This document shows, piece after piece, positions 39,337 to 41,924 of a stretch of 52,349 nt of DNA. Where the stretch lies: IMG/VR virus record IMGVR_UViG_3300028898_000107; one strand, given 5' to 3'. Under the pieces are notes generated by a model, which did no database searches, was not told the DNA's origin, and saw only the letters and a list, made by a program, of their open reading frames with translations. The stretch comes from a virus. The translations under genes were made by a program, and so were the position numbers. Numbering within the stretch: the stretch's first letter is position 1; the number at the start of each line of letters is the position of its first letter.

Positions 39337-39543
39337 ATGCCGTTGATACAAAGTGGTTCTGAGAAAGCCCTGAGGGAAAATATCGCCACCGAGATCTCAC
39401 ACGGCAAGCCTCCCAAGCAGGCTGTGGCTATCGCCCACTCCATCCAACGGGCCAATGACGGCCCGTTGGATAACCTGCCGGAGTCGGTCTCACTGGCCTC
39501 TATCAATGAGATGAACCGGAAGTACTGGGAAACTCCAATATGA
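39337..39543 (+). CDS. small hypothetical protein
   Basis: AAGGAGG precedes ATG 39337. [30 protein letters not shown]. Confidence 0.6.
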   Translation: [68 protein letters not shown]

Positions 39544-39758
39544 CCAAGCGAATACATATCCACCTCAAGAGCGGTCTTCAATCTACTAAGGACGCTAATC
39601 CGGACGGAACGGTAAGCCCTGATGAAGATCGTCGAGAGGCTGAGCTTACCCAAAAGGCTAAAAAGCTATTCTCTGACCTAAAGACCGAGGCTTATGCCAT
39701 CGGGGGTCCTTTTCGAGGCCCGGGCATTTGGGGAAGAATAAAAAGGACTCTTCAATGA
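39540..39758 (+). CDS. small 'IHIHL' family protein, paralog 1
   Basis: MTKRIHIHLKSGLQSTKDA... ATGA-coupled on both sides. Confidence 0.6.
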   Translation: MTKRIHIHLKSGLQSTKDANPDGTVSPDEDRREAELTQKAKKLFSDLKTEAYAIGGPFRGPGIWGRIKRTLQ

Positions 39759-40225
39759 CCATCACCGTTCCACAGTTTCGAGCTGACTACCCTGAGTTCA
39801 ACAGCTCAACCGACTATCCCAACAGCCAGATCGAGTACTACCTGGCCTTGGCCGAGAAGCTTCTTCCGGCCGATCGTTGGGGAAACGTCCTCGACAATGC
39901 GGTAGAGCTGTATGTGGCTCACCATATCGCGATGGAGGCCCGGGCTCAAGCAGAGGCTGCTTCGGGAGTGGTTCCGGGGCAGACGACCGGTCCTATCTCC
40001 TCGAAGTCTGTGGATAAGGTGTCCGTGGGGTTCGACACCAGCTCTGCGACGGAGGAGAAAGGCGGGCATTGGAACCTGACCATCTACGGTACTCGGTTCC
40101 TTCGTCTGGCCAAGCTTTTCGGGGCAGGACCCCTACAGGTCGGAATCGGCATGGTGCCCTACGGAAGCGGGGCTGCCTGGCCTGGCCCAAGTGTTCAACC
40201 AGGCTTCACCAACTTCGGAAGTTAA
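39755..40225 (+). CDS. head-tail connector/adaptor (DUF4054-like)
   Basis: ATG 39755 is ATGA-coupled. FRADYPEF...YYLALAEKLL...WGN...ELYVAHHIA pattern. Confidence 0.6.
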   Translation: MTITVPQFRADYPEFNSSTDYPNSQIEYYLALAEKLLPADRWGNVLDNAVELYVAHHIAMEARAQAEAASGVVPGQTTGPISSKSVDKVSVGFDTSSATEEKGGHWNLTIYGTRFLRLAKLFGAGPLQVGIGMVPYGSGAAWPGPSVQPGFTNFGS

Positions 40226-40237
40226 TAAGGATCCATT

Positions 40238-40432
40238 ATGGCCAAGCATATACACGTTCATGTAGGTAAGACCCAAGATGCACTGCCCTCTGCCCAAGTG
40301 TCCGAAGCCATTCGAAAGGCCGAGGCAATAATTCACCGTCTCAAGAATGTTACCCCTGGGACGGATTTGGCAGACGGGGACTTTCGAGAAGGGTACAAAG
40401 CCTTGACTGCGGCTTATAACTGGATTGTCTAG
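40238..40432 (+). CDS. small 'IHIHL' family protein, paralog 2
   Basis: MAKHIHVHVGKTQDA... Confidence 0.6.
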   Translation: MAKHIHVHVGKTQDALPSAQVSEAIRKAEAIIHRLKNVTPGTDLADGDFREGYKALTAAYNWIV

Positions 40433-40924
40433 ATGGCTAAGAACGCCGCCCGGATGCTGATGAACAAACTGCCTAAGTTGAAGATTAGCTTGGACCAGCT
40501 GACCCACCAGAACGTCATGGTAGGAGTCCCTCAGGACAAGGTCAAGAGACAGGATGAGGACTCCCCGATAGGGAATGCTTCCTTGGCCTACCTCCATGAC
40601 AATGGTGCTCCGGGGGCGAATATCCCGGCTCGCCCTTTCATGAGGCCTGGGATAGAGGCGGCGAAGAAGACCATCATACGCCAGTTTCAGCTGGCCGCGA
40701 AGAAAGCCCTTCATAAGGACGACGCTGCCATAGAGAGAGGGCTTAATATGGCGGGGATCGCCGCCCAAAACGCCATCCGAGCAGCTATCAACGAGGGTCC
40801 TGGCCCTGCACTGTCCGAGGGAACGCTCGCTGCAAGGCGTAGAAGGGGCCGCGAAGGCACTAAACCTCTCGTGGACACAGGGCAGCTAAGGAATAGCATC
40901 AATTATGTCATACGGAGCGAATAA
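40433..40924 (+). CDS. head-tail joining protein (HK97 gp10-like)
   Basis: IPARPFMRPG ... KPLVDTGQLRNSINYVI motifs. Confidence 0.6.
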   Translation: MAKNAARMLMNKLPKLKISLDQLTHQNVMVGVPQDKVKRQDEDSPIGNASLAYLHDNGAPGANIPARPFMRPGIEAAKKTIIRQFQLAAKKALHKDDAAIERGLNMAGIAAQNAIRAAINEGPGPALSEGTLAARRRRGREGTKPLVDTGQLRNSINYVIRSE

Positions 40925-41374
40925 ATGGCTCGGCTGGATGTCTCAGATTTACCCTTAGACCCGATGTTCACGGATACCTTCGACGTCGAGCGAAGAACTG
41001 AGACTGTGGATAACCATGGGAGGAGTACACTGGCTATCCAGACTTTCCCTCGAGTGGCAGGGACTGTCACCATGGCCAGTCCTAATGACCTCAAGAGGTT
41101 GGCTGAGCACCAGGTCACTGAGAGAACCATCAGCATCGTGACCAAGTTCAAGATGCAGGGAGAGGTCACAGGGAAGCAGCCGGACGTGGTGGTCTGGAGA
41201 GGGGATCGATACGTGGTCAACTACATCGACTACTATCCGCAGTTCGGGAGGGGCTTCACTCAGGTTCTCTGCTCCAGTATGGACCGGACCGACGAAGAAT
41301 TGAACGCCCCATTACCTGGAGGCTTTGCCTTCAACCAGTCGAGAAACTCGGCCCTCATTCAACTAACGAGGTAA
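40925..41374 (+). CDS. head-closure / head-tail joining protein candidate
   Basis: 149 aa. Position in the connector module. ...VVVWRGDRYVVNYID... Confidence 0.5.
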   Translation: MARLDVSDLPLDPMFTDTFDVERRTETVDNHGRSTLAIQTFPRVAGTVTMASPNDLKRLAEHQVTERTISIVTKFKMQGEVTGKQPDVVVWRGDRYVVNYIDYYPQFGRGFTQVLCSSMDRTDEELNAPLPGGFAFNQSRNSALIQLTR

Positions 41375-41378
41375 ACAA

Positions 41379-41711
41379 ATGCTCACCAAGATACTGGATG
41401 CCTTAGGGGTTCAACAGACGGTAGTGACTGCCAGCCAAGAAGCTGTGGTCAACAAGTCCGGGACTATCACCGCCACAGGAGTATCGCAGACGCTGGCAGC
41501 AGCCAATGCTCTCCGGTCGGGGTGGTTCTTCCAGAATAATGGGTCCAACCCCATGTACCTGAATGAGGTGGGGGCTGACGCTTCGGCTACCTCCAATTCC
41601 TTCGTGGTGCAGGCTGGCGGTACCTTTCCTCCTGCAGGGTTCGCTCTCACCACGGCCAAGATCAGCGTGCTGGGAACGATAGGAGAAGCCTTCACTTGCA
41701 GGGAGTGGTAA
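41379..41711 (+). CDS. hypothetical structural protein
   Basis: 110 aa, beta-rich (RSGWFFQNNGSNPMYLNEVG...). Confidence 0.55.
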   Translation: MLTKILDALGVQQTVVTASQEAVVNKSGTITATGVSQTLAAANALRSGWFFQNNGSNPMYLNEVGADASATSNSFVVQAGGTFPPAGFALTTAKISVLGTIGEAFTCREW

Positions 41712-41924
41712 ATGATTAAAAATATACATATTCACCTTGGCAATACGAAGGACGCTGATGTTCGGGTGGACCATATCTCATCGGGAGTTGCTGCTGCAAA
41801 GCGAACAATCCAAGATGGTGAGCGGGCTTTGGCAAAAGGGGATCTCGAATTGGCCGGACGATACTTTATCTCTGCTTCGGTCACCCTTGAAAACATCGGC
41901 AAGCAAGCTAAATCATCGGCGTAA
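41712..41924 (+). CDS. small 'IHIHL' family protein, paralog 3
   Basis: MIKNIHIHLGNTKDA... The start overlaps the previous stop (TAAATG). Confidence 0.6.
   Translation: MIKNIHIHLGNTKDADVRVDHISSGVAAAKRTIQDGERALAKGDLELAGRYFISASVTLENIGKQAKSSA

What the first reader, a model, noticed from the sequence alone, without database searches (positions are those of the whole stretch)
39540..41924. Three paralogous 64-72-aa ORFs with a conserved M-x-K-x-I-H-[IV]-H-[LV]-(x)4-7-T-[KQ]-D-A N-terminus interleaved with connector genes
The three N-termini are MTKRIHIHLKSGLQSTKDA (39540), MAKHIHVHVGKTQDA (40238) and MIKNIHIHLGNTKDA (41712). The shared residues are encoded with wobble-position differences (ATC/ATT, CTC/CTT, CAT/CAC). 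This argues for selection at the protein level rather than on a DNA signal. The C-terminal parts have diverged. A similar string (MIKRHSRDA) follows the NUDIX domain of the 31965 product. (K/R)DA tripeptides also recur in that protein and in the scaffold (KAKDAEE, AKAKDSA). One possibility is a shared short motif for processing, targeting or metal (His) binding. I know of no described function for such a triplicated mini-gene family in a head-tail connector module.
Basis: seen in the sequence. Interest (0 to 1): 0.65.

Follow-up and report, generated by a model that had tools for sequence, protein, structure and literature searches.

The report
Shared leader peptide on phage mini-proteins
Three small accessory phage genes share a 15-19-residue N-terminal tag that copies a conserved motif of the phage's own scaffolding protein and ends in a site found at the processed ends of its head proteins, so the tag probably directs varied small proteins into the capsid, although no experiment has tested this.

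Summary
ORFs 39540-39758, 40238-40432 and 41712-41924 share a significant N-terminal leader that is selected at the protein level. The leader is not specific to the connector region. I found more than 100 distinct proteins in related uncultivated myophages that begin M-[AST]-K-H-I-H-I-H-[IVL]-G-(0-5 aa)-K-T-[KR]-D-A. Behind the leader come unrelated domains of 45 to 450 aa. All of these genes point the same way as the late structural genes.

Two links suggest a function:
- **HIHIHxG copies the scaffold.** The scaffold protein (DUF2213/Pa193_gp24) carries a nearly invariant THIHIHxG, and leader genes occur only in phages whose scaffold has it.
- **K-T-[KR]-D ends head-protein extensions.** The same motif closes the short N-terminal extensions of the major capsid and cement proteins. 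It also flanks the scaffold's middle segment, sits near the portal N-terminus and separates modules of a NUDIX polyprotein. Modules swap between that polyprotein and leader-tagged proteins.

The closest relative (84% identical scaffold) lacks all three ORFs, and their GC3 is low, so they are recently acquired accessory genes.

Best reading: a capsid-targeting propeptide plus an Asp-specific maturation site, analogous to the T4 internal-protein targeting sequence. The sequence family appears undescribed. Packaging and cleavage are inferred, not shown.

The parts
39540..39758 (+). Leader-tagged mini-protein A (72 aa). The leader is aa 1-19, MTKRIHIHLKSGLQSTKDA (nt 39540-39596). The mature part (DA)NPDGTVSPDEDRRE...GGPFRGPGIW is conserved in P0139 and L091:1684.
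   Evidence: The ATGA overlaps with the upstream stop and the downstream start suggest translational coupling. GC3 is 0.44. Absent from the nearest relative L099.
40238..40432 (+). Leader-tagged mini-protein B (64 aa). The leader is aa 1-15, MAKHIHVHVGKTQDA (nt 40238-40282). The mature part is a predicted helical hairpin ending ..AAYNWIV.
   Evidence: Orthologs are P0006 (41% identity over 98% of the query), P0136, P0165 and L021:3446. In the AF2 model the leader is coil and helices span 19-36 and 46-63, at pLDDT 64. An AAGGA Shine-Dalgarno lies upstream. GC3 is 0.52.
41712..41924 (+). Leader-tagged mini-protein C (70 aa). The leader is aa 1-15, MIKNIHIHLGNTKDA (nt 41712-41756). The mature part ..GERALAKGDLELAGRYFISAS.. 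is conserved in P0135 and P0171.
   Evidence: The start follows the upstream TAA directly. GC3 is 0.44. Absent from L099.
35807..37159 (+). Scaffolding protein with an N-terminal DUF2213 (Pa193_gp24) domain that is annotated as protease-like. It carries KAKDA (nt 36407-36421), HIHIHNG (nt 36485-36505) and KAKDS (nt 36758-36772).
   Evidence: Pfam PF09979 at E = 5e-50 and PHROG 1961/530. Among 62 homologs the three His and both K..D[AS] sites are invariant or nearly so. HIHIH lies in a disordered linker of the AF2 model. A profile-profile match aligns the leader with scaffold 227-235. Coordinates.
37191..37730 (+). Cement/decoration protein with the N-terminal extension MKRMKTRD (aa 1-8) ahead of the conserved VAFQYRMGAGF.
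   Evidence: Pfam Phage_cement / XM1_gp53. The extension ends in K-T-R-D throughout the clade, and relatives without it start at the equivalent of VAF. Codons are mixed.
37758..38882 (+). Major capsid protein with the N-terminal extension MKQSKLILPTSFRRKTRD (aa 1-18) ahead of the conserved (I)MTFDSGYRTID.
   Evidence: Pfam PF09950. R-x-K-T-R-D is conserved at the end of a variable extension, and relatives without it start at MLTFD/MPTYD. Codons are mixed.
31965..33560 (+). NUDIX-led polyprotein (531 aa). Its modules are separated by five [KR]D[AS] junctions (nt 32319-32333, 32496-32510, 32862-32876, 33009-33023, 33153-33167). Several modules recur behind leaders in relatives.
   Evidence: Pfam NUDIX. 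There are 5 junctions against 0.69 expected. Module sharing with P0173, P0141, L099:9315-10040, L013:200, L091:4227 and L101:11167. NUDIX is fused to portal in phrog_15528 and to DUF2213 in BFVD entry A0A6J7W8E3.
29259..29270 (+). R-A-K-D-S site at residues 21-25 of the portal protein (gene 29196-30590). It may be an N-terminal processing site.
   Evidence: The site is conserved in L099. Only two sequences were compared.

Best explanation
The three ORFs are real, late-expressed accessory genes. Each encodes a small helical protein behind a removable N-terminal leader, and the leader has two parts.

1. **(K)HIHIHxG** is a short linear motif that copies the conserved THIHIHxG of the phage's scaffolding protein. 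It probably lets the protein co-assemble with the scaffold core inside the procapsid.
2. **K-T-[KR]-D followed by A/S/V** is the head-maturation site of this phage group. I propose cleavage after Asp by the scaffold's N-terminal protease-like domain, which would free the 49-55-aa mature protein inside the head. From there it could be delivered to the host with the DNA.

*Shown:* the genes, the leader family, the shared motifs, their co-occurrence, module shuffling at the D[AS] junction, and presence/absence variation between close relatives. *Inferred:* physical packaging, cleavage, which protease acts, and ejection or any anti-host role.
For: - **Real genes.** Orthologs exist for all three mature parts. 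Of 47 leader ORFs, 47 are co-oriented with the structural genes and 74% have an SD-like sequence, against a 26% background.
- **Leader family.** 58 distinct leaders in fetched loci and 51 cluster representatives at E <= 1e-3 among 1.84 billion proteins, nearly all starting at residue 1. Codons are mixed. The domains behind the leader are unrelated and range from about 45 to 450 aa.
- **Scaffold link.** H228/H230/H232 are invariant or nearly invariant in 62 scaffold homologs. hhalign puts leader columns 3-11 on scaffold 227-235 (E = 3.6e-5). The motif lies in a disordered linker, as expected for a binding motif. Leader ORFs are found in 12 of 23 loci whose scaffold has the motif and in 1 of 15 without it, and that one is a 529-aa protein rather than a leader mini-gene (Fisher p = 0.005, not corrected for phylogeny).
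- **Site link.** K-T-[KR]-D closes the variable N-terminal extensions of the MCP and the cement protein. Relatives without an extension begin exactly at the following residues. Protein-level selection applies here too.
- **Site enrichment in the window.** The 4-mer [KR][TASV][KRQ]D occurs 9 times in 8 head proteins against 0.69 expected, and 3 times in all other ORFs against 3.4 expected. The head set was chosen partly after seeing the motif. The a priori head proteins (portal, scaffold, cement, MCP) hold 5 of the 9.
- **Site enrichment in cargo.** [KR]D[AS] is enriched in the mature parts of leader proteins, 33 against 11.3 +/- 3.3.
- **Junctions are exact module borders.** The TNHLGEK..GVVY module follows RDA in the window's NUDIX polyprotein, follows the leader's KDA directly in P0173, and follows KDA in P0141 and in L099.
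- **Head location of the cargo pool.** NUDIX and linked modules are fused to portal or to DUF2213 in other phages.
- **Accessory status.** The ORFs are absent at the same junctions in L099, which has an 84% identical scaffold, and they have low GC3.
- **Precedent.** T4 internal proteins carry a ~10-aa capsid-targeting sequence and are processed by the prohead protease (PMC9958956). That T4 gp21 cuts after Glu is my own knowledge.
Against: - No proteomic or structural data exist for any phage carrying the leader. All carriers are uncultivated, and the GenBank relatives I inspected (Magia, IFTN9, BgManors32, PB1) have no leader mini-genes. BgManors32 gp69 begins MVKLHVH, but that aligns to a VTVTV strand of a different family.
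- The monomer AF2 model does not dock HIHIH onto the N-domain.
- The N-domain has no significant match to a solved protease. Its protease assignment rests on PHROG names and BFVD annotations.
- In solved homologs the cement protein sits on the outside of the capsid (PMC9942802, PMC10457771), yet here it carries the same site. Cleavage therefore cannot be strictly intracapsid, or the motif has another role.
- Prophages at about 40% scaffold identity keep THVHVH but have no leader genes, so the scaffold motif has a primary function of its own.
- No cargo domain has a recognised enzymatic or anti-defence fold.
Confidence: 0.45

Rival explanations
1. The leader is a metal-binding or stability element of small, late-expressed cytoplasmic proteins such as host-takeover or anti-defence factors. 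Its ligands would be His3 plus Asp. In many members an ATCUN-type X-X-His N-terminus would form after Met removal. The proteins are not packaged, and the resemblance to the scaffold reflects a shared metal site rather than targeting.
For: Three alternating His plus an invariant Asp are the conserved core. Of 106 leaders, 101 have a small second residue and 83 would have His at position 3 after Met excision. The mature parts are hypervariable accessory modules.
Against: In the window only B would form an ATCUN site (A has Arg and C has Asn at position 4). This reading does not explain why the leader ends in the same K-T-[KR]-D that ends the MCP and cement extensions. It also does not explain why the same modules occur in a polyprotein cut up by that motif, nor the restriction of leader genes to phages with the scaffold motif.
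Confidence: 0.17
2. They are small assembly chaperones or minor structural parts of the neck and tail. The leader would be a beta-strand that adds onto a connector or tail protein. This is.
For: The window's three copies sit between the DUF4054 adaptor, Neck1 and terminator genes and are translationally coupled to them.
Against: The nearest relative has the identical connector gene set with none of them. In other phages leader genes lie next to the scaffold, the MCP or downstream tail genes. There are no Pfam or PHROG connector matches. The composition is foreign.
Confidence: 0.1
3. They are selfish or freely recombining gene cassettes. The conserved 5' end mainly serves as a recombination handle for insertion at gene starts, and the encoded peptide is of secondary importance.
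For: The insertions are precise at start and stop junctions relative to L099. There is short identity between cassette starts and the starts of the downstream genes (ATGACCA for A and DUF4054; ATGGC[CT]AAG for B and Neck1). GC3 is low, as in the neighbouring GIY-YIG homing endonuclease gene.
Against: Synonymous codons at the core are fully randomised across the family while the peptide is conserved. The same peptide motif occurs inside the scaffold protein. No nuclease is associated with the cassettes.
Confidence: 0.08
4. K-T-[KR]-D is not cleaved. It is a basic docking motif or helix cap that binds the acidic scaffold or the DNA. The leader stays attached and anchors the proteins to the inner capsid surface.
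For: In the AF2 scaffold model both KAKD[AS] sites fall at helix-helix breaks, with D-A-E-E and D-S-A-Y as N-caps. In Pam3 the cement N-loop is retained and binds the MCP (PMC9942802). Pa193 shows unassigned ~16-residue peptides under hexons (PMC11456595).
Against: Relatives that lack the extensions start exactly after the Asp, and unrelated modules start exactly after D[AS]. This is the usual signature of a processing site. Many junctions are followed by non-helical sequence such as DANPDG and DATNHLGE.
Confidence: 0.15

Closest known systems
T4 capsid-targeting sequence (CTS) on internal proteins IPI/IPII/IPIII, processed by prohead protease gp21
   Same: A short conserved N-terminal peptide sits on otherwise unrelated, non-essential small proteins that vary between relatives. 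The peptide ends at the protease's consensus site, which also occurs in core and shell proteins. P1 is an acidic residue (Glu in T4, proposed Asp here). The cargo is thought to travel with the DNA (PMC9958956, plus my own knowledge).
   Different: There is no sequence similarity to the T4 CTS (MKTYQEFIAE from memory). Here the targeting part is a His-Ile beta-type motif duplicated from the scaffold protein itself. Protease and scaffold are one polypeptide of the DUF2213 family, not gp21 and gp22. Nothing has been tested experimentally.
Propeptide-bearing ejection and inner-body proteins of phiKZ/SPN3US-like giant phages
   Same: Many head-internal proteins are trimmed by the prohead protease at a short motif with an acidic P1, and the N-terminal propeptides are implicated in head targeting (PMC5694885, PMC7411985, PMC10052503; listed, not read in detail).
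   Different: Those are giant phages with a T4-like protease and large cargo proteins. They have no common HIHIH-type tag and no mimicry of a scaffold motif.
Encapsulin cargo-loading peptides
   Same: A short terminal linear peptide directs diverse cargo into an HK97-fold shell (my own knowledge).
   Different: Encapsulin tags are usually C-terminal, bind the shell protein directly, are not cleaved, and have a different consensus.
Shared N-terminal leader of Staphylococcus phage 80alpha scaffold and capsid proteins, removed by the host protease Prp
   Same: The same short N-terminal leader and cleavage motif appears on several head proteins (my own knowledge).
   Different: That leader mimics ribosomal protein L27, is cut by a host cysteine protease, and is not used on accessory cargo.
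Pa193/PB1 gp24-type (DUF2213) scaffolding protein
   Same: The window's scaffold belongs to this Pfam family. In Pa193 a fragment stays bound inside the 5-fold vertices, and small ORF products of the head/neck gene cluster are found in virions without being seen in the map (PMC11456595).
   Different: PB1 has no HIHIH motif and no leader genes.

Membership tests
T4-type capsid-targeting propeptide / internal head proteins | A conserved short N-terminal peptide shared by otherwise unrelated small proteins | tested here: met
   More than 100 distinct proteins share the leader and have unrelated mature parts.
T4-type capsid-targeting propeptide / internal head proteins | The peptide ends in the consensus maturation site that is also present in the shell, core or scaffold proteins of the same phage | tested here: met
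   K-T-[KR]-D also ends the MCP and cement extensions and flanks the scaffold's middle segment. This is a sequence-level test only.
T4-type capsid-targeting propeptide / internal head proteins | Actual proteolytic removal of the peptide by the prohead protease | not testable with these tools
   Needs N-terminal sequencing or MS. No cultured carrier was found.
T4-type capsid-targeting propeptide / internal head proteins | Physical presence in proheads and heads, and injection with the DNA | not testable with these tools
   The only support is indirect: related modules are fused to portal or DUF2213 in other phages.
T4-type capsid-targeting propeptide / internal head proteins | Sequence homology to the T4 CTS or the IP family | tested here: not met
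   No Pfam or PHROG hit for any of the three, and the consensus sequence is different.
T4-type capsid-targeting propeptide / internal head proteins | Dispensable and variable between close relatives | tested here: met
   All three are absent from L099, whose scaffold is 84% identical. L099 has a different 241-aa leader protein instead.
   Absent from L099, Magia and IFTN9, and no family hits.
DUF2213 / Pa193_gp24 scaffolding protein (for the 35807-37159 gene) | Significant match to PF09979 over the N-terminal domain | tested here: met
   E = 5.1e-50 over residues 15-176.
Assemblin-like prohead serine protease (for the DUF2213 domain) | Structural similarity to a solved prohead protease and a conserved His/Ser pair | tested here: inconclusive
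   No PDB match at E <= 0.001. BFVD matches are to models annotated as prohead protease/COG3740. Invariant H79, S135 and H159 exist, but a catalytic role is only inferred.
ATCUN (N-terminal X-X-His Cu/Ni site) | A free N-terminus with His as the third residue | tested here: inconclusive
   83 of 106 leaders would qualify after Met removal, but in the window only B does. Metal binding was not tested.
Encapsulin cargo-loading peptide | A terminal peptide with the encapsulin consensus, next to an encapsulin shell gene | tested here: not met
   The shell here is a phage MCP with portal, terminase and tail genes, and the motif is different.

The most novel reading that the evidence does not exclude
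HIHIHxG is a self-association element of the scaffold, acting as a beta-zipper or a His-metal cluster. Accessory genes have copied it, giving a 'scaffold-mimic' address tag coupled to an Asp-specific maturation protease. Together with the KDA-delimited polyprotein, this would form a combinatorial cassette system in which small modules are swapped between polyprotein and tag formats, loaded into the capsid and injected as a fast-evolving anti-host payload. It would be a compact, transferable packaging tag for the large DUF2213-scaffold group of HK97-fold phages.
Probability: 0.2. Interest if true: 0.8.

Novelty: new variant of a known kind. Interest (0 to 1): 0.64.

Why it matters
Capsid-targeting signals are defined experimentally for very few phages, essentially T4 and its giant relatives. 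This finding gives a sequence-defined candidate tag, its likely docking partner and a candidate protease site for a large clade of uncultivated freshwater and soil myophages.

- The predictions can be tested in a recombinant scaffold+MCP system without culturing the host.
- It would assign a role to many 'hypothetical' mini-genes scattered through late operons.
- It points to a pool of possibly injected effectors, including a NUDIX enzyme, that could act in phage-host conflict.
- It could provide a 15-residue tag for loading proteins into phage capsids.

Tried and rejected
- **Family searches.** Pfam and PHROG scans of the three ORFs found no family. Pfam and PHROG scans of ten larger leader-bearing proteins found no informative domain.
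- **Close DNA relatives.** Megablast of the region against GenBank phages found none.
- **Cultured relatives.** Magia, IFTN9, BgManors32 and PB1 have no leader genes. BgManors32 gp69 begins MVKLHVH, but that aligns to a VTVTV strand of a different family (phrog_2619), so I rejected it as a leader.
- **Leader-only search.** A full-length alignment with the word-indexed search found only 13 hits, and the exhaustive profile search found 51.
- **Literature.** Searches for HIHIH-type strings and for DUF2213 found nothing relevant. I could not retrieve the Bcep781 virion-protein paper, which might hold N-terminal sequences. The Pam3, XM1 and phiTE papers gave no direct cleavage data for this motif. 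XM1 only reports that 30 N-terminal MCP residues are missing from the map.
- **Structure.** Foldseek of the scaffold model against the PDB found no protease match. A PDB sequence search with the MCP found only Pam3, and one with the cement protein found nothing. The AF2 model of ORF B was too low in confidence (pLDDT 64) to justify a fold search.
- **Motifs as RNA or DNA signals.** I considered that the motifs are Shine-Dalgarno-like or recombination signals read in frame. I rejected this because Arg is mostly CGY and all synonymous positions vary.
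Full report
**1. The observation.** The window is a 52.3-kb contig of a myophage with 54% GC. Its late operon runs on the + strand in this order:
- terminase
- portal
- MuF
- a GIY-YIG endonuclease
- a NUDIX protein
- three genes for secreted or transmembrane proteins
- the DUF2213 scaffold
- the cement protein
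- the major capsid protein (MCP)
- the DUF4054 adaptor
- Neck1
- the neck terminator
- the sheath, tube and remaining tail genes

The three ORFs lie at 39540-39758 (A, 72 aa), 40238-40432 (B, 64 aa) and 41712-41924 (C, 70 aa), and their N-termini are exactly as quoted. Their similarity is confined to the first 15-19 residues. It is significant, with z = 4.8-7.0 and at most 1 of 2000 shuffles reaching the observed score. The combined pattern occurs three times in the six-frame translation against 0 expected. None of the three matches a Pfam or PHROG family.

**2. The leader is a family, not a local triplication.** I fetched 80 viral loci through the Neck1 protein and more through a degenerate DNA pattern. 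These hold 58 distinct proteins that start with the same leader. The alignment consensus is M-A-K-H-I-H-I-H-x-G-(0-5 aa)-K-T-x-D-A, with M1, H6, H8 and D14 invariant.
- **Exhaustive search.** A profile search of 1.84 billion cluster representatives found 51 proteins at E <= 1e-3. Almost all are 56-94 aa with the leader at residue 1.
- **Pooled features.** Over 106 distinct members, the Asp sits at median position 14 (range 9-20), the median length is 77 aa, and 86 have the full HxHxH.
- **Gene context.** In the Neck1-anchored loci all 47 leader ORFs point the same way as the structural genes. 74% have an SD-like sequence against a 26% background, and most abut the upstream stop codon.
- **Orthologs.** Each window ORF has an ortholog of its mature part elsewhere: A with P0139 and L091:1684, B with P0006, P0136, P0165 and L021:3446, and C with P0135 and P0171.

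The three are therefore real genes whose only mutual homology is the tag. AF2 models B as a coil leader followed by a helical hairpin, at low confidence.

**3. The cargo is modular and variable.** Behind the leader come unrelated domains. Larger members (up to 469 aa) are strings of small modules separated by [KR]D[AS]. This tripeptide occurs 33 times in the mature parts against 11.3 +/- 3.3 expected.

The window's NUDIX protein (31965-33560) is built the same way, with five junctions against 0.69 expected. Its modules recur behind leaders in relatives.
- **The TNHLGEK...GEWDG..GVVY module.** It follows RDA in the window. It follows the leader's KDA directly in P0173, and it follows KDA in P0141 and in the 241-aa leader protein of L099.
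- **The YTSEF..KNPEGTY module.** It follows the leader in L013:200 and L101:11167.

D[AS] is therefore an exact module border, and the polyprotein and the leader-tagged proteins draw on one pool of modules.

The closest relative is L099, an NCBI metagenome contig whose scaffold is 84% identical. It has the same connector genes directly abutting one another and none of A, B or C. It has a different leader protein just upstream of its scaffold gene. A, B and C also have GC3 of 0.44-0.52 against 0.61-0.76 for their neighbours. They are recently acquired accessory genes, not connector components.

**4. First functional link: the scaffold.** The scaffold (35807-37159; PF09979 at E = 5e-50) contains THIHIHNG at nt 36485-36505. 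The three histidines are invariant or nearly invariant among 62 homologs. A profile-profile comparison aligns leader columns 3-11 with exactly this segment (E = 3.6e-5). In the AF2 model the motif sits in a disordered linker, between the first KAKDA site and the coiled coil. That is typical of a short linear interaction motif.

Leader genes occur in 12 of 23 loci whose scaffold carries the motif and in 1 of 15 without it. The single exception is a 529-aa protein, not a leader mini-gene (p = 0.005, not corrected for phylogeny). Prophages at about 40% scaffold identity keep THVHVH but have no leader genes. The scaffold motif is therefore older, and the leader looks like a copy of it.

**5. Second functional link: a common head-protein site.** In this clade the MCP and the cement protein both carry short N-terminal extensions. 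These vary in length and sequence but end in R-x-K-T-[RK]-D, followed directly by the conserved mature sequence. In the window these are RRKTRD-IMTFDSG for the MCP and RMKTRD-VAFQYRMGAGF for the cement protein.

Relatives without an extension begin at precisely those residues, for example MLTFDRRT for the MCP and MVAFAFRM or MGNAILYRM for the cement protein. Codons are again mixed, and Arg is mostly CGY, so this is not a Shine-Dalgarno sequence read in frame.

The same K-[TA]-[KR]-D appears in four other places:
- It ends the leaders (KTKDA).
- It flanks the scaffold's middle segment (KAKDA and KAKDS, both nearly invariant).
- It lies at residues 21-25 of the portal.
- It separates the NUDIX modules.

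In the window the 4-mer occurs 9 times in 8 head proteins against 0.69 expected, and 3 times in all other ORFs against 3.4 expected. The head set was chosen partly after seeing the motif. The a priori head proteins (portal, scaffold, cement, MCP) account for 5 of the 9.

The simplest reading is a maturation cleavage site with Asp at P1. T4-type prohead proteases cut after Glu (my own knowledge), so an acidic P1 has precedent.

**6. Mechanism proposed.**
- The HIHIHxG part recruits the protein to the scaffold core by mimicking the scaffold's own motif.
- The K-T-[KR]-D part is cut during head maturation and releases a 49-55-aa protein inside the head.
- The NUDIX polyprotein would be cut into the same kind of modules.

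Other phages fuse NUDIX and linked modules to the portal (phrog_15528) or to a DUF2213 protein (BFVD), which fits a location inside the head. Such variability between close relatives fits arms-race cargo, as with the T4 internal proteins, whose ~10-aa targeting sequence directs them into the core and of which IPI blocks a host nuclease after injection (PMC9958956).

In the homologous Pa193 capsid a scaffold fragment stays inside the vertices. Small ORF products of the head/neck cluster are present in virions without being seen in the map, and unassigned ~16-residue peptides lie under the hexons (PMC11456595). This is compatible with the model but is not evidence for it, because PB1-like phages lack HIHIH.

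**7. Weak points.**
- Nothing here shows packaging or cleavage.
- The DUF2213 domain has no significant match to a solved protease. Its assignment rests on PHROG names and BFVD annotations, plus invariant His and Ser residues.
- The monomer model does not dock the motif.
- In solved homologs the cement protein is external, so either cleavage is not strictly intracapsid or the motif has another role.
- No cargo has a recognisable function.

The main rivals are a metal-binding or stability tag on unpackaged proteins, an uncleaved docking motif, a neck chaperone role, and a recombination handle. They are scored in the rival section.

**8. Novelty.** No Pfam or PHROG family covers the leader, and full-text searches for the motif strings and for DUF2213 returned nothing relevant. 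I class the finding as a new variant of a known kind: a capsid-targeting propeptide system with a new sequence family, an apparent scaffold-mimic logic, and a modular cargo pool that is exchanged between polyprotein and tag formats. The likely hosts are freshwater Betaproteobacteria, because the nearest genome hits are MAGs of an uncultured betaproteobacterium and of Limnohabitans.

Noticed in passing
window 31965-33560: A NUDIX hydrolase domain heads a 531-aa polyprotein of small modules in the head gene cluster. Other phages fuse NUDIX to the portal (phrog_15528) or to a DUF2213 protein. This suggests a virion-delivered NUDIX enzyme, possibly aimed at host nucleotide signalling or capped RNA.
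   Followed up: partly
window 33186-33212 (EHPREGGKF); also L014:111, L053:2538, L060:5575, L075, L085: A recurrent motif, [FW]-x-E-x-[KE]-H-[PK]-R-x-x-x-G-x-F followed by a Gly-rich run, comes right after a D[AS] junction in the NUDIX protein and in several leader proteins. It also matches part of the phrog_15528 portal fusion. Its function is unknown.
   Followed up: partly
window 39337-39543: The 68-aa ORF just upstream of A ([38 protein letters not shown]..) belongs to phrog_2423 and is homologous to PB1 gp20. By gene order, PB1 gp20 appears to correspond to Pa193 gp20, one of five small ORF products the Pa193 paper detected in virions by MS but did not see in the map. That equivalence is assumed, not checked.
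   Followed up: partly
window 31283-31972: A GIY-YIG/NUMOD3 homing-endonuclease-like gene with low GC3 (0.45) lies between the MuF and NUDIX genes. L099 has an unrelated 73-aa ORF at this position.
   Followed up: partly
window 33553-35748: Three genes whose products have a signal peptide or TM-like N-terminus (DUF192 at 33553-33915, a 325-aa protein at 34252-35229 and a 150-aa protein at 35296-35748) sit inside the head module between NUDIX and the scaffold. They are conserved in L099. This is an odd location for exported proteins.
   Followed up: no
window 39540/39755 and 40238/40433: Cassette starts share 7-9 nt with the start of the gene they precede (ATGACCA for A and DUF4054; ATGGC[CT]AAG for B and Neck1). 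This could reflect insertion by recombination at gene starts, or chance.
   Followed up: no
window 37122-39653, minus strand: An 843-aa antisense ORF overlaps the cement and MCP genes and the ORFs downstream of them, reaching into ORF A. It has no support as a gene and is most likely a by-product of the codon bias of the + strand genes.
   Followed up: no
window 38943-39326: The ORF after the MCP (phrog_2619) starts MARRDS, another possible [KR]D[AS] site. The L099 ortholog starts MAKKNQE, so the site is not conserved.
   Followed up: partly
P0138 (250 aa, from the protein library): This protein has a second complete leader (MTEHIHIHVGTATRDA) in its interior. It is probably two adjacent leader genes fused by loss of a stop codon, and it shows that the tag can occur internally.
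   Followed up: no
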